Shown piece after piece: positions 6,553 to 44,403 of a stretch of 50,870 nt of DNA. The position numbers and the translations under genes are program-made. Source of the stretch: a virus (lineage: Duplodnaviria; Caudoviricetes); the IMG/VR virus record IMGVR_UViG_3300031825_000017, positions 1 through 50,870 of that record; one strand, 5' to 3'. Within the stretch, counting starts at the first letter, position 1; every line of letters starts with the position of its first letter. The notes under the pieces are model-generated. The model searched no databases. It saw nothing but the letters and a program-made list of their open reading frames with translations, and was not told the DNA's origin.

Positions 6553-8694
6553 TCAGACTCCCTTCGTGGTTGTGACGTCGCGCTTGTCCTCGCTGGGCTG
6601 CTCTGCGGCCAGGAGGTCGCGCAGTTCCGCCCGGCATTCCTCGGCCCGGTCCATTGCGGTGCCATCATCGAACCTGCCGCCGGCTACCGCCCATGTGCTG
6701 GCAAACTCCTGCACCTTGGTCATGATGGCCTCGACATCCAGCGCCTTGGCGCTCGGTTGCGGGGTAGTGGCCTCTGCCGGCTTGGCGCCGATAGGCTGCC
6801 CAAGCGCCCACAAGAACATGCAGAAGTTCGCCACGTCGCGTGGGTCGCCTTTTTCAACGTGTTCGCGCAGCATGCGAGAGAGGTCAGCAGGGTCGCATCG
6901 CTCCCATCCGCCGCGGCCTTTTGCGCGAGACTTGGCCAGCTTCGCCTTCATAGCGACAGCGAAGCGGTCTACCTCAACATCGTCTGGATGTTGCTCCGCC
7001 AACGCAGCCTTCAGGTGTGACCAGTCAGACGGCGGATCGCAAGAGTTATCACGGCATTCCATTGACTCGATATGTTCAATTGCTTCTGCTAGCGCCTCCC
7101 GGAGCGATACGTTCACCGGATCATCCGTCAGCGCGGCAGGCGATGCGCTCGGCGCAGGGGCGGCGATCTTTGCCAAGGCTTCAGCGATGGTGTCCTTGCC
7201 AAGCTCAATGCCATGCTTCGCGCATAGCTGCTTGAACAAGTAGCTGTTCGTCGGATTGCCGGCCACCGGCACCGCCTGCTGCGCGCTCGGCGCAGGGGTG
7301 GCGAGCGTGCTATCGGCGTTGCCGCGCGTCTTCACGGTTTTTACACCGTTCGTCGGCACGTCAGCGGGGCGCCAGATATGACCGCAGCCGTGGCACAGGT
7401 GGCTGCGGTGGGGCGGGTTGTTCCAGCGCTCCGGCTTGTCGCCGCCGCATTCCCACCACGACGACTCGTGCAGGCGCTCGGTGTACTGCGCGTCGGTCAT
7501 CGGCGCGTCGATGTGCTGCTCCCCGCAGGCCGGGCAGAACAGCACCATGTCGATGGGCTGTGCCTGTTGCGCGCCGGCGCTCGGCCCGCGCCCGGCAACA
7601 TCGGGCGGCATGGGGGTGGTGGCGAGCATGGCAGCGCGGTAGCGATTCCACATGTCCGCACCGACACAGCAGGCGTACTCGTCGGGGTTCGCAGTCGGGT
7701 CCAGCAGCGCCGGCACTTCCTCCGGCTCGATCTTCGGTGGCGCCGGCTGCGCATCCTCTCCGGCCCGTCCGCGCAGCAACTCCATCGCATGCTGCAGCAG
7801 CAGTTCGGCGCTGTAGTCGTGGGATGCGATGCGCGCCTCGATTTCGGCGAGGGTGTACGGTTCCTTGATAGGGTGCTCGGTAGTTTGATGCGGCCGAGTT
7901 GGGGCAGCCAGTGGTGCAGCCTGTGCGGCATCGGGGTTGATGATCCAGCCGCCCCCAGGCCCAACGAGCGTACCTGTGGGCCGCGCATCCTCGCCGGCCT
8001 GCGGCACCGATTGCCCCGCGAGTGCGTGCGGGATCTCCGCAAACCAGCAATTGCCGGTGCGTTCGACGGTTGGCCAGCAACCATCCGTCTGAAGACAAAT
8101 GAACGCATGGTCGCCGCTGTAGCCGATTACCTTGCGCCAGGAGTAACCGCGGTGCTGGTCGCTTTCGATGTCGCAGTTTGCGCCTGATACCAAACAAAAG
8201 GAGTTGATGGCCGGAAGAGTGTCACCAGGTTGATACGGGCGTTCCGCTAGCCTGCCTTCGCGGCGGCCGGTCTGAACCGGATAGGTCATCACCACGGCTG
8301 GCGAAGCCTGTGAGGCGGGGATGCCAAGCACATCGCGCGCCGCTGCCAGCGCCTCTCCCGGCGACAGCAGCCGCTCCGAATATCCACGGCATTCCCCGAA
8401 GCACTGCCACGCGAGGGCCTGTGCGAGATCGCGTATGGCGGCGGCGTTCTGAGCCGGCTGCGGCGATGAAGCGAGTGCCTCGTGCCGATGGAAATGGAGA
8501 TCGCTGACAAGTTGCCGAAAGACTTCGCGGATAGCTGGGCCGCTAGCTTGACCATGCTCGCTGTCAGCATTGAACAGGTAGCATGAATCTCCGCTAGGCG
8601 ACTCCACGCGACAGCCTTCTGTATCGGGGTCAAATTTCCAGCCATCCGTCAGCCCATGTGCCAACGAGGCACCTTGTTTCTGTTCTTCGCTCAT
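6553..8694 (-). CDS. Large modular (Ea22/Ead-like) mosaic early protein
   Basis: Short modules separated by Ala/Pro/Gln linkers; includes the HPDD..VDRFA..MKAKLAKSRAKGRGGW...GDPRDVANF module and a CxxC/HxCxxC module. Confidence 0.7.
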   Translation of the reverse strand: MSEEQKQGASLAHGLTDGWKFDPDTEGCRVESPSGDSCYLFNADSEHGQASGPAIREVFRQLVSDLHFHRHEALASSPQPAQNAAAIRDLAQALAWQCFGECRGYSERLLSPGEALAAARDVLGIPASQASPAVVMTYPVQTGRREGRLAERPYQPGDTLPAINSFCLVSGANCDIESDQHRGYSWRKVIGYSGDHAFICLQTDGCWPTVERTGNCWFAEIPHALAGQSVPQAGEDARPTGTLVGPGGGWIINPDAAQAAPLAAPTRPHQTTEHPIKEPYTLAEIEARIASHDYSAELLLQHAMELLRGRAGEDAQPAPPKIEPEEVPALLDPTANPDEYACCVGADMWNRYRAAMLATTPMPPDVAGRGPSAGAQQAQPIDMVLFCPACGEQHIDAPMTDAQYTERLHESSWWECGGDKPERWNNPPHRSHLCHGCGHIWRPADVPTNGVKTVKTRGNADSTLATPAPSAQQAVPVAGNPTNSYLFKQLCAKHGIELGKDTIAEALAKIAAPAPSASPAALTDDPVNVSLREALAEAIEHIESMECRDNSCDPPSDWSHLKAALAEQHPDDVEVDRFAVAMKAKLAKSRAKGRGGWERCDPADLSRMLREHVEKGDPRDVANFCMFLWALGQPIGAKPAEATTPQPSAKALDVEAIMTKVQEFASTWAVAGGRFDDGTAMDRAEECRAELRDLLAAEQPSEDKRDVTTTKGV

Positions 8695-8695
8695 C

Positions 8696-8971
8696 TCAGG
8701 CTCCCCGCCGCTTGTCGACCAGCGCCCAGCCAGCGTTCTTGCCACTGCCGAGGAAGTGGATCTTCCCGGCCTTGCGCAGGGCTTGGAGGCGGCGCTCGAG
8801 GATGCGGAAGGTATCGACTTGGGTGTAGATGGTGCGCCCCATGTTCTCTTCATGGGCGATGCACGAGCACTCGTCCATCACCTCTCCGCCGAAGAGGTCA
8901 TTGAAGGTATTCGACTGGTCGCCGATCTTGAGCAAGATCAGGGCATCAAGCTTCTCGTATTTGGTTTTCAT
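8696..8971 (-). CDS. Hypothetical protein (possible winged helix)
   Basis: Tiled ORF; RILERRLQALRKAGKI..GW pattern. Confidence 0.6.
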   Translation of the reverse strand: MKTKYEKLDALILLKIGDQSNTFNDLFGGEVMDECSCIAHEENMGRTIYTQVDTFRILERRLQALRKAGKIHFLGSGKNAGWALVDKRRGA

Positions 8972-9279
8972 TGGTGATCCTTGATCTTTTCCAGGAATGC
9001 GGCCATCGGCCCGTATTTCACCCAGCGCGCCAGCGGCTGCGAAGGTCGGTTCTTCGCACCGTCGTGCAGCGCGTCGAGCAAGCGCTCGAATTGCTGCAGG
9101 CGGGCGGCCTGGGCAATTCCGGCCTCGCGCGCCACGTCGAGCAGGGACAGCGTCTCCGCCAACTGCCGGCGCAGCTCGGCGTTCTTTCGCTTCAGGTCGT
9201 CGGAGTCGCGCGCGAGGTCGGCGATGTCGTGGTTCATCCGATCAGCCTGGCGGATCGGCGTGCGGAGGGGCCAGTTCAT
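8968..9279 (-). CDS. Hypothetical coiled-coil protein
   Basis: ATGA overlap with the RT stop and with the downstream gene. Confidence 0.65.
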   Translation of the reverse strand: MNWPLRTPIRQADRMNHDIADLARDSDDLKRKNAELRRQLAETLSLLDVAREAGIAQAARLQQFERLLDALHDGAKNRPSQPLARWVKYGPMAAFLEKIKDHQ

Positions 9280-10643
9280 GAGGGCTCCTTTCTGGCGGCG
9301 GTGGAATTGCGGTATGCCTTGGTCAGGCCGAAATCGACGGCATGCCCGCGGTAGCGGATGATCTTCGCCAGGTGCGCGCGGTCGGCGTGGCTGCCAGTCG
9401 CCTGCCGCAGCAGGCCGAGATAGCTGTTCGCCGCGGCATGCACCTCATGCGCTTCCATCTGCGCGAGACGCTGCGCGGCGACGTTGACGGTGCGGCGGCG
9501 AGTAGTGCGCACCCACGGACGGATGACTTGACCGACGAAGTCGATGCCGCGGCTCACCGGCTGCAGGATGGTCTTCGTCGGGTTCAGCCGGGCGCCGAGT
9601 CGGCGCGGCAGGAACGCCTCGATGTCATCGTGCGCGGCGTTGAGCCACTGTGGCGATTCGTGCAGCAGCAGGAAGTCGTCGACGTAGCGGATGTAGTGCC
9701 GCGCGCCGAGGACATGCTTTGCGCGCTGGTCGAGCACGTTCAGGTACACGTTGGCGAAGAACTGCGACGACAGATTTCCGATGGGCAGGCCGAGATGTGC
9801 GGGCTGTTCCATGAGGCGCTTGTGGGGCGGCACCCGGTCCATCAGCTTGGGATCACCCAGGTAGACGAAGTCGGCTCGTGGATCGTGCATCAGCACGAGC
9901 TCGGTCAGCGCGCGCCAGAACGGCTCGGGGATCTTCGCGAGCAGCAGATCGAGAAGAACGCGCTTGTCGATGCTGACGAAGAAGTTGGCCAGGTCGCATT
10001 TGAGGTAATACGCCGGCCGCGACCAGTTCTGCGTGATCGAGCGCACCTTGGCTTCGAGGCGTCGCGCTGCGTAGAGCGTTCCGTGCCCCTTGATGCATGC
10101 GCACGAGTCCGCGATGAACGAGCGCTCGAAGCGTGGGCCGATGCGGTTGTACAGCAGGTGGTGCACGATACGGTCGCGGAACTCGGCCGCCCACACCTCG
10201 CGGTGCTTTGGCCGATCGATGACGAAGCACTTCGAGCGGCCGGGCACATAGCTGCCATCCTCCAATTCGTCGTGCAGGCGGCACAGGTTGCGCTCGAGAT
10301 CGGCCTCGAACGCAAGCGCGCTTGCTGTGTTGCGTTTGGTGCGCCGGCAGTCGTGGTAGGCCACGACGAGCTCGGCGCCAGTGAATCCTTCTACTTCGTT
10401 CCAATCTGCTGACGACGACCGCGCGAAGCGCGGCGCTCTTGTGGTTGTTGTTCTGGTTGCCGTTGTTGAAGTTCTGGTACCAGGCGTAAGCGGAACCATC
10501 GCGCTATCTACGTCGCCCACCCGATCACTCAGGCGGGAAACTGCGCCGGACCCTGTCGCACACTGGCGGTCGGTTTCCGTTTTGCGCATGGCGGTGGCCT
10601 TGTGGGCCAGCGGCGCGACCAGATTGAAACGGCGCTCAGTCAT
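9276..10643 (-). CDS. DGR reverse transcriptase (start uncertain: ATG 10643 coupled to the avd stop, or ATG 10499)
   Basis: KHREVWAAEFRDRIVHH, YYLKCDLANFFVSID, GLPIGNLSSQ (the IGxxxSQ DGR signature), YIRYVDDF and GIDFVG. Confidence 0.95.
   Translation of the reverse strand: MTERRFNLVAPLAHKATAMRKTETDRQCATGSGAVSRLSDRVGDVDSAMVPLTPGTRTSTTATRTTTTRAPRFARSSSADWNEVEGFTGAELVVAYHDCRRTKRNTASALAFEADLERNLCRLHDELEDGSYVPGRSKCFVIDRPKHREVWAAEFRDRIVHHLLYNRIGPRFERSFIADSCACIKGHGTLYAARRLEAKVRSITQNWSRPAYYLKCDLANFFVSIDKRVLLDLLLAKIPEPFWRALTELVLMHDPRADFVYLGDPKLMDRVPPHKRLMEQPAHLGLPIGNLSSQFFANVYLNVLDQRAKHVLGARHYIRYVDDFLLLHESPQWLNAAHDDIEAFLPRRLGARLNPTKTILQPVSRGIDFVGQVIRPWVRTTRRRTVNVAAQRLAQMEAHEVHAAANSYLGLLRQATGSHADRAHLAKIIRYRGHAVDFGLTKAYRNSTAARKEPS
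10403..10494 (-). repeat. DGR template repeat (TR), 92 bp
   Basis: On the minus strand it reads TCC GCT TAC GCC TGG TAC CAG AAC TTC AAC AAC GGC AAC CAG AAC AAC AAC CAC AAG AGC GCC GCG CTT CGC GCG GTC GTC GTC AGC AGA TT. It has 7 AAC codons and aligns without gaps to both VRs. Confidence 0.97.
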
Positions 10644-11013
10644 GACGGCCTTGACCTCCATGAAGCGGGCGCTTAGCAGCATATTTTTTCCAGGCCGTGG
10701 CTTGCTTGCTGATGCTCACGGTCAACCGGATGACACACCAATACTGCTTTGGCGAAATTCTCTCCATATCCAGCGCGAGGCGTAGCAGCAACTCAACCAG
10801 CTTTATCTTCTCTATCAGATGAGCAAGGTGTGGCACCTTGTCATCGGCGACGTTTGCGCGATAGACAAGAATCAGCAACTTGGAAGATTCCCGCACGATC
10901 TCCTCACCGATCAGGCGCTTGAACGAGCGTTCCATGTTGGCGACGATCTTCGTTACCCTACCGAAAAGGTCGTAGCCAGTCTTATAGACGTCGAGCTCGG
11001 TATGGAGAGCCAT
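10636..11013 (-). CDS. avd: DGR accessory variability determinant (Avd, four-helix bundle)
   Basis: 125-aa basic helical protein (LDVYK...FKRLIGEEI...LLLRLALDMERISPKQY...ISKQATAWKK) directly upstream of TR/RT. Confidence 0.88.
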   Translation of the reverse strand: MALHTELDVYKTGYDLFGRVTKIVANMERSFKRLIGEEIVRESSKLLILVYRANVADDKVPHLAHLIEKIKLVELLLRLALDMERISPKQYWCVIRLTVSISKQATAWKKYAAKRPLHGGQGRHD

Positions 11014-11027
11014 GGCGTGTCAAATGA

Positions 11028-11495
11028 TTAAATTATTGAAGGAATGAATCTGCTGACGACGACCGCGCGAAGCGCGGCGCTCTTGCGGTAGTAGTCCTGG
11101 GTGCCGTAGCAGAAGTACTGGAACCAGGCGTAAGCGGGATCGCCTTCGTAGTCTTCTTCGAGCCAGATGCTTCCCTTGGTGCATTCCTCGGGGAAGGCCG
11201 CCTGCAGAAGGCGCCCCTCGCGACAGTTCGGCAGCTTGAGCCCACGGCCTGCCGCATATGCTTTTGCATCGTCGTGCGGCGCTATCTCGCCCTCGCCGGC
11301 GTGCAGGATCAGGTAGTAGTCGATGGTGCCATCTTCCTTGAAGATCGGACCCGCAACGCGGGCGCCGGGAGGCAGCGGAATTACCGCGCGCTCGATGACA
11401 TATTCGGTGGTGCCTGATTGCTTTTCGTACTGCTCGATCAGCGCGCCGACGCGCGCGTGCTCGGACTTGATGTGTTCCAGCGTGACACTCGACAT
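11028..11495 (-). CDS. DGR target protein 2 (C-type lectin/DUF1566-like fold, C-terminal VR)
   Basis: C-terminus AYAWFQYFCYGTQDYYRKSAALRAVVVSR is encoded by the VR; LPNCREGRLL and IW motifs. Confidence 0.92.
   Translation of the reverse strand: MSSVTLEHIKSEHARVGALIEQYEKQSGTTEYVIERAVIPLPPGARVAGPIFKEDGTIDYYLILHAGEGEIAPHDDAKAYAAGRGLKLPNCREGRLLQAAFPEECTKGSIWLEEDYEGDPAYAWFQYFCYGTQDYYRKSAALRAVVVSRFIPSII
11047..11137 (-). repeat. Variable repeat VR-B
   Basis: 91-bp ungapped match to TR with 10 mismatches, all at TR adenines. Confidence 0.97.
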
Positions 11496-11532
11496 GGAAG
11501 ACCTCCGGTGGTGGATCGAATGGGTGAATGAA

Positions 11533-11892
11533 TCAATTTTTGAATCTGCTGACGACGACCGCGCGAAGCGCGGCGCTATTGTGGTCGTTGCTCTGGCCGC
11601 CGTCGTAGAAGTCCTGGGACCAGGCGTAAGCGGAGTCCCACTCGACGTCGTCGTCGGTCCAGTACGCCTCTGGCTTCACGAGCTCTCGGTGCTCGTTGTA
11701 GATGATCAGCGCATCGACTCGGGTGAAGAGGACGCCGCCGACGCTCTTCGCCCATTCACGCTGCTGGTCACGCGGCCGCCGTGTGTCGGTCACTGCGATG
11801 ATCACGGTGTGCTCGATGTCGCCGTTCTTGTCGATGCGGCCGTGCAGATAGGTTTGGCCTTCGGCGAGCGGTGGGATTTGGATTTGCTGCAT
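11533..11892 (-). CDS. DGR target protein 1 (C-type lectin/DUF1566-like fold, C-terminal VR)
   Basis: EWAKSVGGVLFTR..YWT...SAYAWSQDFYDGGQSNDHNSAALRAVVVSR; GGGAGA Shine-Dalgarno before ATG 11892. Confidence 0.92.
   Translation of the reverse strand: MQQIQIPPLAEGQTYLHGRIDKNGDIEHTVIIAVTDTRRPRDQQREWAKSVGGVLFTRVDALIIYNEHRELVKPEAYWTDDDVEWDSAYAWSQDFYDGGQSNDHNSAALRAVVVSRFKN
11543..11634 (-). repeat. Variable repeat VR-A
   Basis: 92-bp ungapped match to TR with 8 mismatches at TR adenines and one G->T change (11578). Confidence 0.97.
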
Positions 11893-11940: not shown

Positions 11941-12444
11941 TCAGGTGGCTTCCTGGAATTCCTCGGGCTCGTCGTACGACAGGCTCATGTGGACCTCCTG
12001 GCCGAGGAGCTGGCAGATCCTAGCCAGAGTCTTCTCGTCAGGATGGATCTGCACGCGGAAGTTGATGAAGACGGTGCCGCCTTCCTGAAAGTCGAAGGAG
12101 AGTCTGTTCACTCGTGCATCGTCGAGCACGATGTTGTCTTCCTTGCGCACCTGGCTGAGAATGCTCAGCACCTGGTGCTCCCAGTCGCCGTCCCACTTCA
12201 CGGTGCCCAGCGCCGGGTTCTTCAGGTTCGGCAGGTAGCCGGCATCGGTCACCAGGTCGCCCTGGACGGCCTCGTCCTTGTGGTAGAACGAAGACTTGAG
12301 CGTCGGCGAGAACAGGGTCAGCAGGTCATTGGAGACGCGCGCCTGCAGCTTCAGGTCCACGCCCAACACGCTGTCCTCACCGTGCTTCTCGGTGCGCGTG
12401 TTGATGTGCAGGATCTTGACCAGTTGGTTATCGAGTTCGAGCAT
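11941..12444 (-). CDS. Conserved phage hypothetical protein
   Basis: 167-aa ORF with a GGAG Shine-Dalgarno; NTRTEKHGED motif. Confidence 0.75.
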   Translation of the reverse strand: MLELDNQLVKILHINTRTEKHGEDSVLGVDLKLQARVSNDLLTLFSPTLKSSFYHKDEAVQGDLVTDAGYLPNLKNPALGTVKWDGDWEHQVLSILSQVRKEDNIVLDDARVNRLSFDFQEGGTVFINFRVQIHPDEKTLARICQLLGQEVHMSLSYDEPEEFQEAT

Positions 12445-18296: not shown

Positions 18297-19049
18297 TTAC
18301 AGGCGCGTTTTGATCTTGCGCGCCGGCACAGGGTGCGCAACGTAGTACATCCAGGTGATCTGGTCTATGTCGTAGGTCAGAATCTCCGGATCGTTGTAGC
18401 TGCCCAGGCGGACGCCCTGACGACGAGAGAGAAGGCGCTTGATGATCGTCTCGCCGGATTCCAGGCGCACAAGCACGTCGTCTTCGATCTCCGGCTCTGT
18501 TCCTGGCTCGACCAGGGCGAACTCGCCAGGGTTGAAGCGGGGCACCATCGACGTCCCCACCACCGGCGTGAGAAACGCCTGCGGGTCGGGGCTCGCCATC
18601 TCTGCGTACTGGTCTGTTGCTCCCACTGGATAGTCCCCGTCCGTCCAAATGCGATCGGGCAGTCCCCCGGTCGCGCGGCCGACGACGTAGATCCGTCTGA
18701 ACTTGGAAGTGTCGGCCGGATAGGTCAGCGGGGTGGCTGGTGGTGCCCTTGAAAGGTCATTGTAAGCCGGTGCCGATGGCTCTTTGACACCCTTCTCTAG
18801 TAGGGCATGGGGCATCTTCGGCTTATGGGCACCGCCATAAGCCAGCCAGTTCACATCGCACTTGAGTACCTCCGCGAGGCGCACCGTGTACTTGCTGGAG
18901 CGCGCGTTTTTGTTCGGGTCCAGCAGGTGCTGGATGTTCTGTGGCTTGCATCCATGGCCCACCTGGCGGGCCAATTCGCTCTGGTCTGTATGGGGGTCGA
19001 GCCCGGCGCATTTCATTGCCCAGGCGAGCCGCTCGGCGTACGTGTTCAT
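18297..19049 (-). CDS. cI: CI-like repressor (HTH plus S24 autopeptidase)
   Basis: QSELARQVG..PQNIQHL HTH; VGTSMVP catalytic Ser and IIKRL Lys; divergent from cro. Confidence 0.92.
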   Translation of the reverse strand: MNTYAERLAWAMKCAGLDPHTDQSELARQVGHGCKPQNIQHLLDPNKNARSSKYTVRLAEVLKCDVNWLAYGGAHKPKMPHALLEKGVKEPSAPAYNDLSRAPPATPLTYPADTSKFRRIYVVGRATGGLPDRIWTDGDYPVGATDQYAEMASPDPQAFLTPVVGTSMVPRFNPGEFALVEPGTEPEIEDDVLVRLESGETIIKRLLSRRQGVRLGSYNDPEILTYDIDQITWMYYVAHPVPARKIKTRL

Positions 19050-19113
19050 AACAAAGCATTTTGTAGCCTTGCCTTGCAAAAAGGTTTGTAGGGTGCTACA
19101 AATACGTTTGTAA
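19049..19113. promoter_or_regulatory. OR region with three operators (19049-19066, 19074-19091, 19096-19113)
   Basis: Copies of CTACAAA-N4-TTTGTAG; the 19096 copy matches OL1 at 17 of 18 positions. Confidence 0.85.
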
Positions 19114-19131
19114 TGAATGACCTTATGCGCC

Positions 19132-19383
19132 ATGACCGAAGCCCTCAATGAAGTCGCCGGCCCGCTCGACATCGCCATCTCCATCGTCGGCTCGCAAACC
19201 AAGCTGGCCGCGCTGCTCGGCGTCTCCCAGCAGAACGTTTCCAACTGGGTGAAGAACGGCATCCCGGATGACAAGAAGCCGGTGATCGCGGGGAAGCTCG
19301 AGCGAATCACGGACGGGCGCGTCACTCGTCGGATGGTCTGCCCGAACAACTGGGCAGAAATCTGGCCGGAACTGGCGGCCTAG
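19132..19383 (+). CDS. cro: Cro/YdaS-like regulator
   Basis: GSQTKLAALLGVSQQNVSNW HTH; IWPEL C-terminus. Confidence 0.88.
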   Translation: MTEALNEVAGPLDIAISIVGSQTKLAALLGVSQQNVSNWVKNGIPDDKKPVIAGKLERITDGRVTRRMVCPNNWAEIWPELAA

Positions 19384-37038: not shown

Positions 37039-37058
37039 CATATCGACGAGGGATGACC

Positions 37059-38534
37059 ATGTCCAACGGACTGCCGGTATCGCGGCTGATCAACGTCACC
37101 ATCAATATGTCGCCGCTGGCGGCGCAAGGTGCCAACCTGAATACTGCGCTGCTGCTCGGCGCATCGACCGTCATCGATACCAACGAGCGCATGCGGTCAT
37201 ACGGCCTGATCGACGACGTCGCTGGCGACTTTGGCACGTCGGCACCCGAGTACCTTGCTGCGCTACTGTATTTTCAGCAAACGCCTCAGCCTTCGCAGCT
37301 CTACATCGGCCGCTGGGCGAAGACGGCGACGGCTGGCCTGGTGCGTGGCGCGGTGCTGTCGGCTGCCCAGAAGGACATCACGGCCTGGAAAGCGGTGACT
37401 GCCGGCGGCTTCAAGATCACGGTGGACGCCACGCTCAAGACGCTGTCCGGGCTGGATTTCTCCAGCGTGACGAACCTTAACGGCGTGGCCAGCATCATTC
37501 AGACGGCGTTGGCCGGCGCGACTTGCGTGTGGAACGGCTCACAGTTCGTCGTGTCGTCTCCGACCACGGGCGCCTCGTCGAAGGTCAGCTATGCGACGGC
37601 GCCAGCCAGTGGGACCGATATCTCGGCGATGCTTGGCCTCACGAGCGGCCTGGCGTCGGTGCCGGTGGACGGCATTGTGGCTGAGGCGCCCGATGCATGT
37701 GTGGCGCTGTTCCTGGATCGCTTCGCAAACAAGTTCCTCGGCCTTCAGTTCGCCGATACCGGCGTCACCGACGACCAGCACGCGGCCGTGGCTGCGCTGA
37801 TCGAGGCGGATCAGCGTCATCTGTACGGGATCACGACGCAGGCGCCTCAGGTCCTGGACCCAACCAGCACGAGCGATATCGCCAGTCGGCTGAAAGCGCT
37901 TGGCTACAAGTATTCGTTCGTGCAATTTTCGAGCAGTAGCCCGTACGCCGCGGCGTCGCTGTTCGGTCGGTTGCTGACCACGAACTTCGATGCCAACAAC
38001 ACCACGATCACCCTGATGTACAAGCAGGAACCCGGGATCGGGCCGGATGAACTGACGAGCACCCAGGCCAACACGCTGCAAGACAAGCGCTGCAACGTGT
38101 TCGTCGAGTACGACAACGACACGGCCATCGTGCAGTATGGTGCGACGCCGAGCGGCATCTTCATCGACTCGATTTACAACGCGATCTGGTTCCGGAATCG
38201 CATCCAGACAGACGTCTACAACCTGCTGTACCAGAGCCCGACGAAGATCCCGCAGACCGACGCCGGCAACGCGTTGATCGCAACGGCCATCGAGGGGGCC
38301 TGCGAGGCAGCGGTGAACAACGGCTACCTGGCGCCGGGTGTCTGGAACTCGGGCGGCTTCGGCGCGCTGAAGCAGGGCGACACGCTGGCCAAGGGCTACT
38401 ACGTCTACACGCCGCCGATCTCGCAGCAGTCGCAGGCCGATCGCGAGGCGCGCAAGTCGGTGCCGTTCCAGGTGGCGGCAAAGGAGGCTGGCGCCATCCA
38501 CTCTGTCGACATCATCGTTAACGTGAACCGGTAA
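37059..38534 (+). CDS. Tail sheath (DUF3383)
   Basis: About 490 aa; [27 protein letters not shown] and QSQADREAR. Confidence 0.9.
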
Positions 38535-38549
38535 TCGGAGCGGAACAAC

Positions 38550-38990
38550 ATGAGCACGTATTCCTTTATGGACGTTCAGGCGTCCATCGTTGGCCCTGGT
38601 GGCGCATTTTCTCTGGGCTATGGCGAGGCCGCTGCCGAAGAAGGCATCACCATTGCTACGGGCGCCGACAAGAACACCATGACTATCGGCGCGGACGGCG
38701 AGGGCATGCACAGCCTCCATGCGGACAAGTCCGGCCAGGTGACGTTACGGTACCTGAAGACGGCGCCGGTCAATGCGCTGCTGCAGGCGCTGTACGACGC
38801 CCAGACGCTCGATAGTCGGCTGCACGGGAAGAACCTGATCACGGTCACGCAGTCAGCGAGCGGTGATGTCACCGCGGCGCGCAGCTGCGCTTTCAAGAAA
38901 AAGCCAGATCTGAGGTACGCCAAGGATGGCGATATCGTGGAGTGGGTCTTCGACGCGATCAAGATCGACACCATCCTGGGCACCTACTAA
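38550..38990 (+). CDS. Tail tube (DUF3277)
   Basis: NTMTIGADGEGMHSL; follows the sheath. Confidence 0.88.
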   Translation: MSTYSFMDVQASIVGPGGAFSLGYGEAAAEEGITIATGADKNTMTIGADGEGMHSLHADKSGQVTLRYLKTAPVNALLQALYDAQTLDSRLHGKNLITVTQSASGDVTAARSCAFKKKPDLRYAKDGDIVEWVFDAIKIDTILGTY

Positions 38991-38992
38991 CC

Positions 38993-39451
38993 ATGGCACT
39001 CGAAATCGAACTGAACGGCAACCGCTATTCGATCGGCCGCCTGAGCGCGATGCAGCAGTTCCACGTGTCGCGCCGGATTGCCCCGATCATCCCGACGCTG
39101 ATCCCGGTATTCATGCGCATGCGCGAGAAAGGTATCGAGGGTTCGGGGTTGGCCGACCTGGATGGCCTCGCAGCAGCACTGCAGCCCCTGGCCGATGGCC
39201 TGGCAGCGCTCAAGGACGAGGATGCCGAGTATGTGCTCGGAACCTGCATGTCAGCAGTGCAGCGCCAGCAAGAAACCGGATGGGCCCGTGTCTGGGCACT
39301 CGAGCAGAAACGCGCGATGTTTCAGGACATCGGCATCGAGACCATGCTTCCGCTGGCTGTCCGTGTCATCACAGAGAACCTCGGCCCTTTTATCAGCGGG
39401 CTGCTTACCGGCCAAGCGAGCAGCCCGGCACCGGCAGCACCAGTTGGCTGA
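38993..39451 (+). CDS. Tail assembly chaperone (G-like)
   Basis: Lies between the tube and the tape measure gene. Confidence 0.8.
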   Translation: MALEIELNGNRYSIGRLSAMQQFHVSRRIAPIIPTLIPVFMRMREKGIEGSGLADLDGLAAALQPLADGLAALKDEDAEYVLGTCMSAVQRQQETGWARVWALEQKRAMFQDIGIETMLPLAVRVITENLGPFISGLLTGQASSPAPAAPVG

Positions 39452-39636
39452 AATCGCTGCCCGGCGGCGAGGACTGGCTGATGGCGCCCGTGTTGGAGGG
39501 GATGTGCAAGTTCGAGTCATTGAAGGACGGCACCATCGGGTTGGAAGACATTGCCTTGATGCACGACGCACTGGCCGTCAGGGCCGACAACCAGGCCGAA
39601 GCACGCCGCAGGATGGAAGAAAAGCATGGCCAATAG
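39385..39636 (+). CDS. Tail assembly chaperone GT extension via -1 frameshift
   Basis: C CCT TTT slippery heptamer in frame; the -1 frame stays open to 39636 (LPGGEDWLMAPV...SLKDGTI). Confidence 0.7.
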   Translation, partial: PFYQRAAYRPSEQPGTGSTSWLKSLPGGEDWLMAPVLEGMCKFESLKDGTIGLEDIALMHDALAVRADNQAEARRRMEEKHGQ

Positions 39637-41392
39637 CACCGTCATCCGCGAATTCCTGGTGGCGCTCGGCTTCAAGGTCGACGAGAAAGGTCTGAAAAAC
39701 TTCACTACTGGGGTGGAGAAGGCCACAAAGGGCGTTACGCAGTTGGTAGCGAGCATTCAGGGTGCATCGCTCGCCGTGGCCGCCGGCGTGTCAGCATTTG
39801 CCTCGAAGCTCGAGGCGCTGTACTTCGTTGGGCAGAGAACCGGGGCAACCACGACGAGCCTGAAGGCACTGGAATATGCTGCGCGCAACTTGGGCATCTC
39901 GTCGCAGGATGCCTTCGGAGCCGTCGAGAATCTGGCTCGTTTCCTGCGCAACAACCCGGCCGGCGAGGGCTATCTCGCAAGTCTTGGCGTGCAGACAAGA
40001 AATGCCAGCGGCGAGTTGCGCGACACTGTCGACATCCTTTCGGACGTCGGGGCCGAACTCGCGAAGCGGCCGACTTGGTTGGCGAGCCAGTACGGCAACA
40101 TCTTGGGCATCCCCGAGAATCTGTTGCTTGCAATGCGCAACGGCGACTTCGCCAAGTTCATGCAGCAGTACCGCGAGATGTCGCGGGGCAGTGGTCTGGA
40201 CAAGGCCGCCAATGATGCCCACGCGTTCATGATCGCTCTGCGCGATCTCTGGACGACGTTCGAGAACTTCGCCATCCGAGTGGAAGGGGTGCTGCTGAAG
40301 AAGATCGGCCCGCAGCTCGAGCGATTCCAGAAATGGTTTGCAGAGCATGAGCCAGAGATCGCGGATCGGATCGGTGATATCGCCGTAGCGCTGTTAGCGG
40401 CTGCCGCCGCCATGGGACCGCCTCTGTCATGGTTGGTCGACAAGTTCATCGAACTGGATCGTGCAACCGACGGCTGGTCGACGAAGATCGGGCTGGCTCT
40501 TGGGCTATTCACCGCCTTCGGCGGTGCGAGCCTTATCGGTGGGATCTGGAAGATGGTCGCAGCCCTTCGGGCGATGTCTTTGGCTACGGCCGCTGTTGGC
40601 ACTGCAGCAACTGCAGCGGGCGCGGCTACCGCAGGGGCAAATGTGGCTGGCGCCGCCGGCGCAGGCGCGGCAGCAGGCGTCGGGGCCGGCGCAGGCGCGG
40701 CAGCAGGTTGGCTGTCACGTTTGCTTCCATGGTTGAGTCGTGCTGCTGGTGCCGCCGGCCTCCTGTTCTACAGCGGTGGGCTGAACAATGGCGAGGAAGC
40801 TGAACTGGCGCGGCGTCGGGCTGGTTCCGGAAAGGTCGGCGGTCCAGCTACAGCATCCGCGGAAGATCCACCGCGAAATGCGGTCGATGCGGTGAGTTTC
40901 TTCCAGCGCATGGGCTGGACGAAAGAGCAGGCGGCCGGCATCGTCGCGAACCTGCACGCGGAGAGCAATCTCAACCCTCGCGCGGTGGGCGACAACGGCC
41001 AGGCCATCGGCGTTGCACAGTGGCATCCGGATCGCCAGTCCAATTTCAAGGCGTGGGCAGGAAAGGACATCCGCGAGTCCTCGCTGATGGAACAGCTGCA
41101 ATTCGTCAACTACGAGCTGACCCAGGGCGCTGAGCGGCGCGCTGGCGCTTTGCTTCGTGCTGCGCAGAACGCGCAGCAGGCTGGCGAGATCGTGTCTCGG
41201 TACTACGAACGACCTGCCTTGGCTGATGCCGAGGCGTCACGCCGTGGAGCAGGGGCGGTGCAGATTGCCCAGGACATCAAGATCGACGTGCGCGGTGTGG
41301 ACGATCCTGTGGCCGCTGCCAATGAGGTGCGCCGTCAGCAGAGCGACCTCAATGCCGATATGGTCAGGAACCTACAAGGGGCAATCTCGTGA
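39626..41392 (+). CDS. Tape measure protein with C-terminal phage tail lysozyme domain
   Basis: IREFLVALGF start, Ala-rich helices, AAGIVANLHAESNLNPRAVGDNGQAIGVAQWH..R...QLQF..YEL...YERP. Confidence 0.9.
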   Translation: MANSTVIREFLVALGFKVDEKGLKNFTTGVEKATKGVTQLVASIQGASLAVAAGVSAFASKLEALYFVGQRTGATTTSLKALEYAARNLGISSQDAFGAVENLARFLRNNPAGEGYLASLGVQTRNASGELRDTVDILSDVGAELAKRPTWLASQYGNILGIPENLLLAMRNGDFAKFMQQYREMSRGSGLDKAANDAHAFMIALRDLWTTFENFAIRVEGVLLKKIGPQLERFQKWFAEHEPEIADRIGDIAVALLAAAAAMGPPLSWLVDKFIELDRATDGWSTKIGLALGLFTAFGGASLIGGIWKMVAALRAMSLATAAVGTAATAAGAATAGANVAGAAGAGAAAGVGAGAGAAAGWLSRLLPWLSRAAGAAGLLFYSGGLNNGEEAELARRRAGSGKVGGPATASAEDPPRNAVDAVSFFQRMGWTKEQAAGIVANLHAESNLNPRAVGDNGQAIGVAQWHPDRQSNFKAWAGKDIRESSLMEQLQFVNYELTQGAERRAGALLRAAQNAQQAGEIVSRYYERPALADAEASRRGAGAVQIAQDIKIDVRGVDDPVAAANEVRRQQSDLNADMVRNLQGAIS

Positions 41393-41973
41393 GTCTGCTG
41401 GACATGGTACTGATCTCGTCCAAGTCGATCGGCGACATCACTGTCGCCGTGTCGATCGAGGAGACCGCCACGGACGAATTGACAATCACCGAGCATCCGG
41501 TCGAGCTTGGCGCCGAGATCAGCGACCATGCCTTCAAACGGCCCGCGGAACTGGTGATGAAGTGCGGCTGGTCCAACGCGGACTATGCCGCGCTGATTGG
41601 CGTCTTCCAGGCACTGTTCAACGGCCAGTTGCCCACGGCTGACTACGTCAATTCGGTCTATTCGCAGTTGCTGGCGTTGCAGGCCACGCGCAGGCCGTTC
41701 ACGGTTGTGAGCAGCCGGCTCACCTATCCGAACATGCTGCTGAAGGGATTAACGGTCGTGACAGACCAGAAGACCTCGGCCACGCTGATGGTGACTGCCT
41801 CGCTGCGCGAGGTGATCATCGTCAACACACAGGTGACCACATTGCCGCCGCGGGAGAGTCAAGCGAACCCGCAGGCCACGGCGGAGACCGTCATCGCAGG
41901 CGTGAAGTCGGCGATTCCAGCAATCCCGGCACCCGGCGGCATCATCCCGCCGACGGCATGGGGCAGCCTATGA
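41389..41973 (+). CDS. Tail/baseplate initiator (Dit-like)
   Basis: ITEHPVELGAEISDHA motif. Confidence 0.8.
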   Translation: MSLLDMVLISSKSIGDITVAVSIEETATDELTITEHPVELGAEISDHAFKRPAELVMKCGWSNADYAALIGVFQALFNGQLPTADYVNSVYSQLLALQATRRPFTVVSSRLTYPNMLLKGLTVVTDQKTSATLMVTASLREVIIVNTQVTTLPPRESQANPQATAETVIAGVKSAIPAIPAPGGIIPPTAWGSL

Positions 41974-42281
41974 ATTATTTCGAGATCCCGCTGTCGCCGG
42001 ATCCGCAAACGTTCTCCATCACGCTGAGTGGCATCGACTATCGCCTGACCGTCCAATACCGGTCGGCGGGCGGAGCAGGGTGGGTGCTGGACATTGCGGA
42101 TGCCAATGACAATCTGCTCGTTGGAGGAATTCCGCTGGTGACTGGCGTGAATCTTCTGGGTCAATACGGGTATCTGGGCTTCGGTGGGCGGCTCTGGGTG
42201 CAAGGGGCGGCAAATCCTGACGACGTGCCGACGTTCGATGACTTGGGCGTCGGGTCGCATGTTTTCTGGGTAACGGACTGA
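41970..42281 (+). CDS. Baseplate protein
   Basis: GIPLVTGVNLLGQY motif. Confidence 0.75.
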   Translation: MNYFEIPLSPDPQTFSITLSGIDYRLTVQYRSAGGAGWVLDIADANDNLLVGGIPLVTGVNLLGQYGYLGFGGRLWVQGAANPDDVPTFDDLGVGSHVFWVTD

Positions 42282-43579
42282 TGAGCACGCCGCAATACCT
42301 CCGCAAAGCCTCGCTGATCATCGGTCAGGCCGCAGGCGATGCGCTTGACCTGTCGGCGCTGCGATTTGTCTTCGACGTACGCCGCGGCGACCTGCAGACA
42401 CCAAACTCGGCGCGCGTGCGTGTCTTCAACGTAGGGCCGATGACGGCGCAGCGGGTCCAGAAGGAATTCACGCGCCTGGTGCTGCAGGCAGGCTACGAGG
42501 GCAACTACGGCATCATCTTCGATGGCAACATCAAGCAAGTTCGCCGCGGCCGCGTCAGCCAGACCGATACCTACCTGGACATCACGGCGGCCGATGGCGA
42601 TTCGGCCTACAACTTCGCCGTGGTGAACGCCACACTGGCCGCCGGCTCGACATCGGCGGATCACGTCGCGGCCGCCTGCACGGCCATGAACCCCTACGGC
42701 GTAAGTCTGGGTTATGCCCCGTGGGGCAAGCCGGCGCAGGCGAAGCCGACGGCGGACGACATTGCTGCGCAACAGGCGGCGGTGGACGCGGCGAGGAAGA
42801 CGGTAGACGACAACACCAACAAGGCTTCCGACCTTGTCAGCCAGGGAATTCAGCTTCGCAAGCAGGGAGATGCGGCGGCAGCGGCGGGGGATTCCGCTGC
42901 TGCGCGTCAGTATTACCTACAGGCGAAGGCGTTGAATGACCAGGCCGGCTCGGTGCTGACCGGCGTCAACAAGGTGGATCTGCCTCGCTACAACAGCGAA
43001 CTCGACAAGCTCAAGGCGATGAAAGAGGCTGCGGCGCAGCCGGATACGCCGTCGGCCGCCATGTCGGGCCTACCGCGGGGCAAGGTGATGTTCGGCATGG
43101 CGCGCGACTTCATGCGCTCGACAGCAAAGAGCACGCAGACGGTCTGGAGTATCCAGGACGGAAAGGTGGTGCTGGTGCCGGAGACGTCTTACAAGCCTGG
43201 TGATATCCCGGTAGTTACGGCAGCCACCGGCATGGTGGGTCTGCCAGAGCAGACCCAGAACGGCATCAGGGTGAAGATGCTGCTCAATCCGAACGTGAAG
43301 ATCAGCCAGTTGATCCATTTGGACAACGCCAGCATCCAGCGATTCGAGTTCAGCCTGAACGTAGGTCAGCAGGCTGAAATGGAGCGCGTGGGGCTGCAGA
43401 ACAAGCTGCAGGACGATGGCTTCTACTACGTCATGGTGGCCGAGCACACCGGCGACACCCGGGGTAACGACTGGTACACCGAGGTCATCTGCCTGGCGGC
43501 GGATGTGACCTCGATTCCGAAATCCTTCCTGCAGCAACAGGATGTTCCCCCGGACAACGTGATCAAGCCCTTCGGTTAG
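42281..43579 (+). CDS. Baseplate hub protein with an internal helical insertion
   Basis: LQAGYEGN.GIIF.G, AADGD.AY, LPRGKVMFG, WSIQDG, TGMVGLPEQT and GDTRGNDWY. Confidence 0.85.
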   Translation: MSTPQYLRKASLIIGQAAGDALDLSALRFVFDVRRGDLQTPNSARVRVFNVGPMTAQRVQKEFTRLVLQAGYEGNYGIIFDGNIKQVRRGRVSQTDTYLDITAADGDSAYNFAVVNATLAAGSTSADHVAAACTAMNPYGVSLGYAPWGKPAQAKPTADDIAAQQAAVDAARKTVDDNTNKASDLVSQGIQLRKQGDAAAAAGDSAAARQYYLQAKALNDQAGSVLTGVNKVDLPRYNSELDKLKAMKEAAAQPDTPSAAMSGLPRGKVMFGMARDFMRSTAKSTQTVWSIQDGKVVLVPETSYKPGDIPVVTAATGMVGLPEQTQNGIRVKMLLNPNVKISQLIHLDNASIQRFEFSLNVGQQAEMERVGLQNKLQDDGFYYVMVAEHTGDTRGNDWYTEVICLAADVTSIPKSFLQQQDVPPDNVIKPFG

Positions 43580-44394: not shown

Positions 44395-44403
44395 AGCAAC
44401 CCC

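What the first reader, a model, noticed from the sequence alone, without database searches (positions are those of the whole stretch)
9276..11892. Two-target DGR diversifying small non-structural lectin-like proteins in the early-left operon
Seen: an RT with IGxxxSQ and YVDD motifs, avd, a 92-bp TR, and two VRs ending tandem 119-aa and 155-aa genes. VR-B has 10 of 10 mismatches at TR adenines; VR-A has 8 of 9. The two VRs carry different substitutions, so they were mutated independently. The 7 AAC codons alone allow 15^7 (about 1.7e8) variants per target. Known: the classic phage DGR (Bordetella BPP-1) diversifies a tail-fibre receptor-binding protein. Here the tail fibre in the window (48015-48899) has no VR. 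The targets lack signal peptides and virion-attachment domains and sit among bet/exo, methylase and accessory genes. Inference: they are hypervariable cytoplasmic binders made early in infection or induction, possibly as a combinatorial heterodimer. They could be an adaptive counter-defence or host-takeover system. Similar cassettes may already be catalogued, but I know of no established function.
Basis: partly seen in the sequence, partly recalled or inferred. Interest (0 to 1): 0.9.

Follow-up and report, generated by a model that had tools for sequence, protein, structure and literature searches.

The report
Phage mutator diversifying two early lectins
A temperate soil phage carries a complete mutagenic reverse-transcriptase system that rewrites the binding tips of two tiny lectin-fold proteins encoded among its early genes rather than its tail genes; this layout is real and already catalogued, but what the proteins bind is still unknown.

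Summary
On the minus strand lie, in order, a 119-aa target, a 155-aa target, avd, a 91-nt TR and the RT. Against the TR, 10 of 10 and 8 of 9 VR mismatches fall at TR adenines. No further VR exists in the complete 50.9-kb phage record.

The short target folds with high confidence (pLDDT 95.7). Its best solved match is the Legionella Lcl C-terminal domain, a C-type-lectin fold. Both targets belong to the DUF1566/Lcl_C family.

The cassette is not new:
- The same module sits in the early, integrase-side arm of Burkholderia phages Magia, vB_E192a and vB_PL1.
- Short DUF1566-only and two-target DGRs are described in Wu et al. 2018.
- This scan has already reported the layout on other genomes.

Three results here add to that:
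- The short-plus-long target pair recurs in 25 of 41 betaproteobacterial loci.
- Integrase, ParB and methylase genes are the commonest named flank genes there. No tail family is among the 25 commonest.
- Two near-identical GenBank phage records differ at 31 positions, 27 of them inside two VRs. This shows the cassette family is active.

A cytoplasmic, counter-defence or heterodimer role remains untested inference.

The parts
11533..11892 (-). Short target gene (119 aa). It is a stand-alone Lcl_C/DUF1566-type C-type-lectin-fold protein.
   Evidence: ATG 11892 has a GGGAGA Shine-Dalgarno. There are 91 homologues, many named DUF1566 by NCBI. Of 87 aligned members, 51 hit Pfam Lcl_C at E<=0.01, but the window's own protein does not. 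The AF2 model has pLDDT 95.7. The best PDB fold match is 8q4e_A, the Legionella Lcl C-terminal domain (E 2.2e-4, TMq 0.71).
11543..11633 (-).
   Evidence: 91 nt with 9 mismatches to the TR. Eight are at TR adenines and one is G-to-T.
11028..11495 (-). Long target gene (155 aa): an N-terminal helix plus the same lectin-type domain. It is a paralogue of the short target.
   Evidence: 32% identity to the short target over 111 aa, E 1e-14. There are 34 homologues, many named DUF1566. The AF2 model is poor (pLDDT 55.3), but residues 6-25 form a helix with pLDDT 77-88. A GGAGG Shine-Dalgarno precedes the ATG.
11047..11137 (-).
   Evidence: 91 nt with 10 mismatches to the TR, all 10 at TR adenines.
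10636..11013 (-). avd (125 aa), the accessory four-helix-bundle protein.
   Evidence: PHROG 3206 'Avd protein of DGR' at 1.3e-21. Pfam bAvd at 2.2e-8, 35 bits, below the cut-off of 40. NCBIfam DivGenRetAVD at 1.9e-9, 37.8 bits, below the cut-off of 80.
10494..10635 (-). Stretch between the avd stop and the TR. It is probably part of the DGR RNA; its structure was not tested here.
   Evidence: Position only. An earlier first-reader note (e1-6286389) proposes a structured RNA here. I did not test it.
10403..10493 (-). Template repeat (TR).
   Evidence: 91 nt with 25 A. It is the A-rich copy of the three-copy repeat. Its last 36 nt are identical in the TR and both VRs, and contain a 6-bp GC inverted repeat, CCGCGC-TTC-GCGCGG (my reading).
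9276..10402 (-). DGR reverse transcriptase. The frame stays open upstream through the TR to ATG 10643, which overlaps the avd stop, and to ATG 10682.
   Evidence: Pfam RVT_1 at 1.1e-14. IGNLSSQ and YVDD are in the translation. The best solved relative is 8ub7_A, a 328-aa 'Reverse transcriptase', E 4.9e-36. Full-length tblastn matches of 63-81% identity occur in 29 of 41 related loci. The true start codon is not settled.

Best explanation
This is a complete diversity-generating retroelement of the DUF1566/CLec2 class, and it is probably still working. It lies in the early-left (recombination-to-integrase) arm of a temperate myophage of a Burkholderiaceae-type host.

How it works:
- Shown: the parts are present and intact.
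- Inferred: the operon is transcribed from the early-left promoter. The RT with Avd copies the TR RNA while misreading adenines.
- Inferred: the cDNA replaces the last roughly 50-90 nt of two tandem genes. This randomises about a dozen codons (7 AAC codons plus TAC, CAC and AAG) on one face of each protein.

The targets are an old, co-inherited pair of minimal C-type-lectin-fold proteins. One is a bare 119-aa domain. The other is a 155-aa paralogue with an N-terminal helix.

My committed reading of their role is inference, not shown. They are soluble ligand-binding proteins made early from the incoming or induced genome. They act inside the infected cell, or at least off the virion, on a variable host or competitor molecule. 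They are not stoichiometric tail receptor-binding proteins.

Confidence that the DGR is real is about 0.95. Confidence that the cassette family is active is about 0.9. Confidence in the off-virion role is about 0.45. The figure below is for the whole statement.
For: DGR anatomy:
- RT, Avd, TR and two VRs lie in canonical order, with 18 of 19 mismatches at TR adenines.
- There are only three repeat copies in the whole record.

Fold:
- The short-target model has pLDDT 95.7. Its best solved match is the Lcl C-terminal domain, followed by C-type-lectin-like domains.
- 51 of 87 homologues hit Pfam Lcl_C.

Activity in the family:
- In 28 related loci, 659 of 786 TR-VR mismatches (84%) fall at TR adenines, although A is 29.6% of the TR.
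- GenBank OK094664.1 and OP650936.1 are both 47,902 bp and differ at 31 positions in all. Fourteen lie in the VR of the short-type target (14 of 14 at TR adenines). Thirteen lie in a remote third VR (12 of 13). Four are elsewhere, and the long-type VR is identical.
- Family alignments are hypervariable exactly at the codons that hold TR adenines.

Early, off-tail placement:
- In the window the cassette lies between Bet/exonuclease genes and a Gam-like protein, methyltransferase, helicase and integrase. The tail genes start about 25 kb away on the other strand.
- The layout is the same in the complete genomes of Magia and vB_Sb_QDWS, and in the 14.6-kb stretch of vB_E192a that I fetched.
- Among 136 flanking ORFs of 16 related loci, the commonest families are integrase (10 by PHROG, 8 by Pfam), ParB-like (5 and 4), methyltransferase (5), primase/helicase and CII-like. 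No tail or head family is among the 25 commonest in either library.
- No minus-strand terminator-like site lies inside or just upstream of the cassette.

Old pair:
- 25 of 41 loci keep the order first target, second target, Avd, RT.
- On a quick tree, long and short types need 3 label changes against 21.7 in shuffles (0 of 500 as low).

No virion anchor:
- The 119-aa protein is one fold from end to end.
- Of 10 longer relatives scanned, none carries a tail-fibre or virion domain. One carries ParB_N and one DUF551.
Against: - Nothing shows where the proteins are or what they bind.
- The only phage DGR target with a demonstrated function (Mtd of BPP-1) is a receptor-binding protein. Surveys predict most viral targets to be tail proteins. 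Baykov et al. assume a receptor-binding role even for small single-domain C-lec targets.
- A gene's position among early genes does not exclude a virion role.
- The flank tallies print only the 25 commonest of 160 (PHROG) and 50 (Pfam) families. Rare structural hits cannot be excluded, and one flank ORF is a terminase.
- The window's own two proteins do not reach any Pfam, PHROG or NCBIfam threshold.
- The long target's model is poor.
- Activity is shown for a relative (RT region 72% identical in DNA), not for this phage. The only within-sample variant seen at a VR adenine site has depth 2 of about 252 and may be an error.
- The branch separating long from short types has weak support (72). 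The N-terminal helix columns were left in the alignment and may help the split.
Confidence: 0.45

Rival explanations
1. The two small lectin-fold proteins are virion-associated receptor-binding or adhesin accessories, functional analogues of Mtd. They would dock non-covalently on the tail fibre or baseplate through their conserved non-variable face, the conserved N-terminal peptide (short target) or the N-terminal helix (long target). The DGR would then serve tropism switching as in BPP-1.
For: - The only demonstrated function of a phage DGR target is receptor binding. Viral targets are mostly predicted as tail proteins (passages read).
- Small single-domain C-lec targets flanked by short helices were proposed to be Mtd-like binders.
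- The closest solved fold, the Lcl C-terminal domain, belongs to an adhesin by my recollection (one search gives only the title). A Bdellovibrio Bd2740 C-terminal domain also matches.
- The first 13 residues of the short target are strongly conserved (Q3, P7, P8, A10, G12 at 90% or more). The N-terminal helix of the long target is conserved down to 31% identity. Either could be a docking element.
Against: - There is no attachment domain such as Mtd's N-terminal domains.
- The genes lie about 25 kb from the tail module on the opposite strand.
- They keep an integrase-side early position in the complete genomes of the window, Magia and vB_Sb_QDWS, in the fetched part of vB_E192a, and in related loci.
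- None of 10 longer relatives is fused to a tail domain.
Confidence: 0.3
2. The proteins work for the lysogen or at lysis rather than during takeover. In one version they are expressed from the prophage as hypervariable sensors or blockers against other phages. In another they are released at lysis to bind surface glycans or receptors on debris or neighbouring cells.
For: - The cassette lies near the integrase end of prophages, where lysogeny-expressed accessory genes often sit.
- DGR targets in or near putative defence or signalling systems have been reported (passage read).
Against: - There is no effector domain and, by my reading of the N-termini, no export signal.
- No promoter-like site above chance precedes the cassette. 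One site was found against 1.1 expected, and it lies inside a VR.
- The genes are in line with an operon that a CI-type repressor (18297-19349) would be expected to silence in the lysogen. That last point is inference.
Confidence: 0.12
3. This particular copy is a frozen DGR. The parts look intact but no longer home, so the VR differences are historical only.
For: - Decayed relatives exist. Twelve of 41 related loci lack a full-length RT in the fetched flank, and three of them keep only 43-70-aa RT fragments.
- One long-type target in L035 has an internal stop.
- One VR mismatch is not at an adenine.
- The contigs of the best-holding run show no well-supported VR variant.
Against: - RT, Avd, TR and both targets are open and full length against relatives.
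- The 36-nt 3' ends of the TR and both VRs are identical.
- A relative with the same architecture has changed two VRs between two deposited genomes.
- Contigs drop rare variants, so cannot show absence.
Confidence: 0.08

Closest known systems
DGR of Burkholderia cenocepacia phage Magia (MT701587; genes 44-47 plus remote gene 57), with the same module in Burkholderia phages vB_E192a and vB_PL1
   Same: - The order is the same: short lectin-fold target, about 154-aa second target, Avd, TR, RT.
- The place is the same: downstream of the RecT/nuclease genes and upstream of the integrase.
- The cassette is about 70-72% identical in DNA.
- TR-VR differences fall at adenines.
- The Magia announcement names a potential DGR with targets in genes 47 and 57 (passages read).
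   Different: - Magia has a third, remote target (gene 57), and its TR differs in sequence.
- The announcement does not name gene 46 as a target, although its 3' end is a VR copy.
- The window has exactly two VRs.
- The window's structural proteins gave no tblastn hit in the fetched 14.5-kb parts of Magia and vB_E192a.
Bordetella phage BPP-1 DGR (mtd-avd-TR-brt)
   Same: - The mechanism class and gene order are the same: target, avd, TR, RT.
- The VR is at the C-terminus of a C-type-lectin fold.
- Mutagenesis is adenine-specific.
- The RT's best solved relative is 8ub7_A (E 4.9e-36). I recall this to be the BPP-1 RT; the tool gives only 'Reverse transcriptase'.
   Different: - There is one target, Mtd (381 aa). 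It has N-terminal domains thought to attach the trimer to the tail fibre (as described in the section read).
- By recollection, the BPP-1 cassette lies beside the tail genes.
- Here there are two targets of 119 and 155 aa with no such domains, in the early arm.
Category 'd' / CLec2 DGRs of Wu et al. 2018 (DUF1566, DUF823, Fib_succ_major), exemplified by Legionella LdtA
   Same: - The VR class and DUF1566-type domain match.
[quoted passage not shown]
- It also states that 13% of DGRs have two targets (passages read).
   Different: - LdtA is a surface lipoprotein of a bacterium.
- The window's targets show no lipobox or hydrophobic leader in my reading, and they are phage genes.
Quimbyvirus DGR (Benler et al. 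2021)
   Same: It is a phage DGR with two targets, one of which lies outside the structural module, in a defence-related island (passage read). This is a precedent for non-structural phage targets.
   Different: - It is a Bacteroides phage with an unrelated genome.
- One of its targets is structural.
- Here both targets, and the third in relatives, are in the early arm.
nd4_tgt2 / nd12_tgt2, small single-domain C-lec DGR targets of gut phages (Baykov et al. 2023)
   Same: They are a single globular C-lec domain flanked by short helices, lacking Mtd's attachment domains. They are diversified together with a second target from one TR (section 2.5 and Discussion read).
   Different: - They belong to the DUF6273 family and are 234-294 aa.
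- They are paired with a large Ig-domain 'tentaclin'.
- The authors assume receptor binding.
- Here the family is DUF1566/Lcl_C, the proteins are 119 and 155 aa, and the pair are paralogues.

Membership tests
Diversity-generating retroelement (DGR) | Reverse transcriptase of the DGR type (RT domain with the [ILV]GxxxSQ motif and YxDD) | tested here: met
   Pfam RVT_1 at 1.1e-14. IGNLSSQ and YVDD are in the translation. The best solved relative is 8ub7_A at 4.9e-36. The motif definition is recalled, not taken from a call. No DGR-specific RT model was available; the NCBIfam hits to group II, retron and Drt models are all far below their cut-offs.
Diversity-generating retroelement (DGR) | Template repeat and variable repeat(s) whose differences fall at template adenines | tested here: met
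   10 of 10 and 8 of 9 mismatches fall at TR adenines, while A is 25 of 91 TR bases.
Diversity-generating retroelement (DGR) | Accessory protein (Avd or HRDC) | tested here: met
   PHROG 'Avd protein of DGR' at 1.3e-21. The Pfam bAvd and NCBIfam DivGenRetAVD matches are significant but below their curated cut-offs.
Diversity-generating retroelement (DGR) | VR at the C-terminal end of a C-type-lectin-fold target | tested here: met
   The short-target model has pLDDT 95.7. Its top PDB matches are the Lcl C-terminal domain and C-type-lectin-like domains. Each VR ends 10-19 nt before the stop codon.
Diversity-generating retroelement (DGR) | IMH / IMH* pair and a downstream hairpin or cruciform, as in BPP-1 | tested here: inconclusive
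   The last 36 nt of the TR and both VRs are identical and GC-rich, then diverge. No TR-specific IMH* difference is seen inside the repeat. The only GC inverted repeat lies inside the shared segment (reading). Only 14 nt separate the long target's stop from avd. Wu et al. note that most DGRs lack such a hairpin (fragment seen).
Diversity-generating retroelement (DGR) | Mutagenic retrohoming actually occurs | not testable with these tools
   For this window only contigs of sequencing runs were on hand. In a relative with the same architecture, 27 of 31 differences between two deposited genomes lie in two VRs.
Lcl_C / DUF1566 (Pfam PF07603) | Match to the family HMM at or above the gathering score | tested here: not met
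   Neither window protein gives any Pfam hit at E<=0.01. 51 of 87 homologues of the short target hit Lcl_C at E<=0.01. NCBI names many homologues DUF1566. Membership therefore holds at family level, through homologues, and not by the protein's own score.
Lcl_C / DUF1566 (Pfam PF07603) | Fold of the Lcl C-terminal domain | tested here: met
   Foldseek's best PDB match is 8q4e_A, the Legionella Lcl C-terminal domain (E 2.2e-4, TMq 0.71, 18% identity). BFVD matches include small DUF1566 proteins of uncultured Caudovirales.
Mtd-like phage receptor-binding protein | N-terminal domains that attach the protein to the tail fibre | tested here: not met
   The 119-aa protein is a single fold with strands from residue 14 to 118. 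The 155-aa protein adds only a helix of about 20 residues. Mtd's domains are as described in the section read.
Mtd-like phage receptor-binding protein | Gene in or beside the tail module | tested here: not met
   Targets lie at 11028-11892 on the minus strand. The tail sheath to tail fibres lie at 37053-49534 on the plus strand.
Mtd-like phage receptor-binding protein | Presence in virions and a role in adsorption | not testable with these tools
   No proteomic or host-range data were found. The papers seen on Magia and vB_E192a contain none in the passages read.

The most novel reading that the evidence does not exclude
The phage uses the DGR as an adaptive counter-defence or host-takeover device. 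The short and long paralogues would be early intracellular binders, each rewritten at about a dozen codons. Rare progeny would then carry a variant that binds and neutralises a variable host protein, such as a defence sensor or nuclease. Because the incoming genome expresses its own variant at once, genotype and phenotype are linked from the first infection, which is not the case for a tail protein. The module's recurrent position just upstream of an orphan methylase and a Gam-like nuclease inhibitor (window, vB_Sb_QDWS, vB_E192a, L009) would make it part of an anti-defence island.
Probability: 0.25. Interest if true: 0.85.

Novelty: new member of a known kind. Interest (0 to 1): 0.4.

Why it matters
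Every phage DGR target with a demonstrated function is a receptor-binding protein. Here a whole lineage of betaproteobacterial prophages keeps a pair of bare lectin-fold targets among early genes, away from the tail. If these proteins act inside the cell, DGRs would be a phage tool for evolving binders against host factors, not only for switching receptors. That would also offer natural, very small (119-aa) diversifiable binding scaffolds.

The question is directly testable. Cultured phages with the cassette exist (Magia, vB_E192a, vB_PL1). Two deposited genomes of one phage already show the cassette rewriting two of its three targets.

If the proteins prove to be virion accessories, the finding is an ordinary variant of the BPP-1 theme.

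Tried and rejected
- Long-target structure: the model built from 33 close homologues was poor (pLDDT 55.3). I used it only for the N-terminal helix.
- Heterodimer of short and long target (complex prediction): the verdict was 'no answer' (score 0.01 against a mark of 0.32). This is no evidence either way.
- Expression: no RNA holder was listed among 24 runs. Nothing can be said about transcription.
- Population variation: only Logan contigs were available. In the best holder (X1, soil metagenome, 0.96 of words, possibly the source sample) the contigs break at the shared TR/VR 3' ends, as expected for a repeat. One variant at an adenine site (11111) has depth 2 of about 252 and may be an error. 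A relative in X2 differs from the window inside the long-target VR at 6 listed positions, 5 of them adenine sites. I treat this as weak. Runs with small shares say nothing about habitat.
- Fused forms: a search for longer proteins gave 35 hits, mostly single-member clusters. I scanned 10 of the 35. Eight have Lcl_C with unannotated extensions, one has ParB_N, one has DUF551 plus Lcl_C, and one has nothing. The ParB_N case may be a read-through of neighbouring genes. I draw nothing firm from it.
- Promoter and terminator scan: one promoter-like site was found against 1.1 expected. All 11 terminator-like sites are on the plus strand.
- Literature: my searches found no experiment on the function of small DUF1566-only phage targets.
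- Tree: the careful search did not finish in 288 s. The quick tree is reported, with weak support at the key branch. I dropped five mis-started or truncated ORFs before building it (L016_10389, L036, L014_9857, L034_9863, L018_9947).
- TR-VR tally: I dropped three alignments of 43, 25 and 25 nt as spurious. Magia, vB_E192a and the window are listed apart. Local alignments ran a few bases past the repeat and so added non-adenine mismatches.
Virion proteins lack one too.

Full report
**1. What is there**

The stretch 9276-11892 holds a full DGR on the minus strand.

- A repeat search found one three-copy family at 10369-10522, 11013-11166 and 11509-11662. The alignment shows a shared core of about 91 nt.
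- Trimmed to that core, the A-rich copy (TR, 10403-10493; 25 A of 91) lies between avd and the RT homology.
- The other two copies end two tandem genes.
- The copy in the 155-aa gene (11047-11137) differs from the TR at 10 positions, all TR adenines.
- The copy in the upstream gene (11543-11633) differs at 9 positions, 8 of them adenines and one G-to-T.
- Seven positions (six of them adenines) are changed in both copies, and only one carries the same base, so the copies were written separately.
- The last 29 nt occur three times in the window and never in 100 shuffles.
- The TR matches nothing else in the record, which is a 50,870-bp virus record rated 100% complete. The tail-fibre genes therefore have no VR.
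- In the VR frame the TR holds 7 AAC codons (my reading).

**2. The enzymes**

- The RT frame contains IGNLSSQ and YVDD and hits RVT_1 at 1.1e-14.
- Its best solved relative is 8ub7_A, a 328-aa reverse transcriptase, at 4.9e-36. I recall this entry as the BPP-1 enzyme, but the tool does not say so.
- Avd hits the PHROG 'Avd protein of DGR' at 1.3e-21. It hits the Pfam and NCBIfam Avd models below their cut-offs.
- The RT frame stays open upstream through the TR to an ATG that overlaps the avd stop. I did not settle the true start.
- The 36-nt 3' end shared by the TR and both VRs contains a 6-bp GC inverted repeat. There is no room for a hairpin after the long target's VR, because only 14 nt separate its stop from avd.

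**3. The targets**

- The two proteins are paralogues: 32% identity over 111 residues, E 1e-14.
- The short one has 91 homologues and the long one 34. Nearly all named ones come from Burkholderiaceae, and NCBI names many of them DUF1566.
- Neither window protein reaches a Pfam, PHROG or NCBIfam threshold by itself. However, 51 of 87 homologues of the short one hit Lcl_C.
- With the 87-row alignment the short target folds at pLDDT 95.7 as one domain.
- Its best solved match is the Legionella Lcl C-terminal domain (8q4e_A, TMq 0.71). A long list of C-type-lectin-like domains follows.
- Small DUF1566 proteins of uncultured phages match in BFVD.
- The long target's model is poor (pLDDT 55.3), except for an N-terminal helix at residues 6-25. 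That helix is conserved in relatives down to 31% identity.
- In both family alignments the variable columns are those encoded by adenine-bearing TR codons, while W, Q, G and the C-terminal LRAVxVxRF stay fixed.

**4. Context**

- The window is a temperate myophage.
- On the minus strand lie an integrase (119-1186), a helicase, a DNA methyltransferase, a 766-aa protein with a Gam-like end, the DGR, two exonuclease-type genes, Bet/RecT and a CI-type repressor.
- Replication genes and the tail sheath, tape measure, baseplate and tail fibres lie on the plus strand.
- No minus-strand terminator-like site interrupts the arm.
Transcription itself was not observed.

**5. Relatives**

- A DNA search of 50,697 phage records found 11 with a match. 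Six cover more than half of the query. They stand for phage Magia (deposited twice), vB_E192a, vB_PL1, vB_Sb_QDWS and 'Hujiaoplasma phage zrk29-1'.
- In Magia and vB_E192a the order is the same and the place is the same, between the RecT/nuclease genes and the integrase.
- Magia has a TR and three VR copies, in genes 46, 47 and 57. vB_E192a has a TR and two VR copies.
- The Magia announcement mentions a potential DGR with targets in genes 47 and 57 (passages read).
- A scan of one genome per species found 41 loci with a relative of the short target. They span Burkholderiaceae, Alcaligenaceae, Oxalobacteraceae, Gallionellaceae, Methylophilaceae, Azonexaceae and others.
- Of these 41 loci, 29 have a full-length RT in the fetched flank. 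In 25 the order is first target, second target, Avd, RT, at nearly constant spacing. Some have three tandem targets or a remote one. Twelve lack a full RT, and three of those keep RT fragments.
- Over 58 TR-VR pairs in 28 loci, 659 of 786 mismatches fall at TR adenines, against 29.6% A in the TR.
- On a quick tree of the domains with the VR cut off, 25 of 26 long-type rows fall on one side and 42 of 48 short-type rows on the other. This needs 3 label changes against 21.7 in shuffles. The dividing branch is weak (72), and the helix columns were left in.
- I read this as an old duplication whose two products have been kept together.

**6. Where the cassette sits in relatives**

I called ORFs in the flanks of 16 loci and scanned 136 of the 225 called.

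- The commonest PHROG families are integrase (10 ORFs), ParB-like (5), methyltransferase (5), primase, helicase and CII-like (3 each).
- The commonest Pfam families are Phage_integrase (8), DUF5131, ParB_N and HTH_ParB (4 each), VapE-like and CII (3 each). Single chromosomal genes follow, probably beyond the attachment site. One terminase and one RecT also appear.
- No tail or head family is among the 25 commonest in either list. Rarer families were not printed.
- In the complete genome of vB_Sb_QDWS the cassette lies between RecT/exonuclease genes and a cytosine methylase, a 'host nuclease inhibitor' and the integrase. The tail genes are on the other strand.

**7. Direct sign of activity**

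- OK094664.1 (vB_Sb_QDWS) and OP650936.1 (zrk29-1) are both 47,902 bp. After rotation they differ at 31 positions.
- Fourteen differences lie in the VR of the short-type target, all at TR adenines.
- Thirteen lie at 44987-45037, in a third VR inside gene 65. Twelve of those are at TR adenines.
- The long-type VR is identical in the two records, and four single differences lie elsewhere.
- So 27 of 31 differences sit in 180 nt of a 47.9-kb genome. This is what mutagenic retrohoming between two samplings of one phage would produce.
- It shows activity in the cassette family. For the window's own copy, activity is inferred from intact parts.

**8. What it does**

- Shown: the anatomy, the fold, the conserved pair, the early-arm position and activity in a relative.
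- Inferred: the proteins are ligand binders whose variable face is rewritten.
- Where they act is open. I lean to an off-virion, intracellular role (about 0.45) for four reasons:
  - the placement is kept across many otherwise unrelated prophages;
  - the short protein has no room for an anchor;
  - no longer relative that I scanned is fused to a virion domain;
  - the module repeatedly neighbours a methylase and a Gam-like inhibitor.
- The rival, a virion accessory that docks through its conserved N-terminal peptide or helix (about 0.3), is what the field assumes for small C-lec targets. My data do not exclude it.
- The heterodimer idea got no answer (see Tried and rejected).

**9. Comparison and novelty**

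- The element is a member of the DGR kind, and within it of the DUF1566/CLec2 class.
- Wu et al. write that about half of that class's targets are short DUF1566-only proteins and that 13% of DGRs have two targets (passages read).
- A non-structural phage target was proposed for Quimbyvirus.
- This scan has already reported the same early-arm, two-small-target layout in Ralstonia-type, Pseudomonas and Methylotenera prophages. I list those notes but did not use them as evidence.
- It is therefore a new member of a known kind.
- The pieces I did not find in the papers read are the conserved short-plus-long pairing, the flank tally and the QDWS/zrk29-1 comparison. One earlier scan note does name QDWS as a relative.

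**10. Verdict**

The DGR is real, ordinary in mechanism and catalogued in kind. The biology of its targets is an open and testable question. Interest is 0.4.

Noticed in passing
L049 (OP650936.1) and L050 (OK094664.1), whole records: Two GenBank phage records are the same 47,902-bp genome apart from 31 positions. One is assigned to Shewanella baltica. The other is assigned to a Tenericutes bacterium and is flagged UNVERIFIED_ORG. Their G+C is 63.2%. Their DGR module matches Burkholderiaceae prophages at about 70-72% DNA identity. The stated hosts look doubtful, and a betaproteobacterial prophage is more likely.
   Followed up: partly
window 11941-12444 (minus strand): A 167-aa gene lies directly upstream of the short target and has no Pfam, PHROG or NCBIfam hit. 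It has relatives upstream of the cassette in L009 (61% identity, adjacent), L023 and L030 (32-39%, 1.7-4 kb upstream). It may travel with the cassette.
   Followed up: no
window 10403-10682 (minus strand): The RT reading frame is open through the whole TR up to an ATG that overlaps the avd stop (ATGA at 10640-10643). The true RT start, and whether the TR is translated, are unsettled. An earlier first-reader note raises the same point.
   Followed up: partly
window 6553-8853 (minus strand): A 766-aa protein has its last 50 or so residues matching Mu Gam-like end protection and host nuclease inhibitor families. The rest hits only families of unknown function. It sits between the DGR and a 594-aa DNA methyltransferase.
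   Followed up: no
window 9338-9579, run X1: In the best-holding soil metagenome run, two contigs of nearly equal depth (240.8 and 226.4) cover the 3' part of the RT gene and differ at 18 of 242 letters. Depth is raised over 9276-9593. A second, related element probably shares this stretch in the sample.
   Followed up: no
L035 10385-11344; L015, L018, L030: Decayed relatives exist. In L035 (Chitinilyticum) one of three tandem target genes has an internal stop and no RT lies within 10 kb. L015, L018 and L030 keep only 43-70-aa RT fragments after the two targets.
   Followed up: no
P0136 (384 aa) and P0159 (277 aa): Single-member protein clusters in which a short-target-like region follows a ParB N-terminal domain (P0136) or a DUF551 domain (P0159). 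ParB-like genes are also common directly upstream of the cassette, so P0136 may be a read-through of two neighbouring genes.
   Followed up: no
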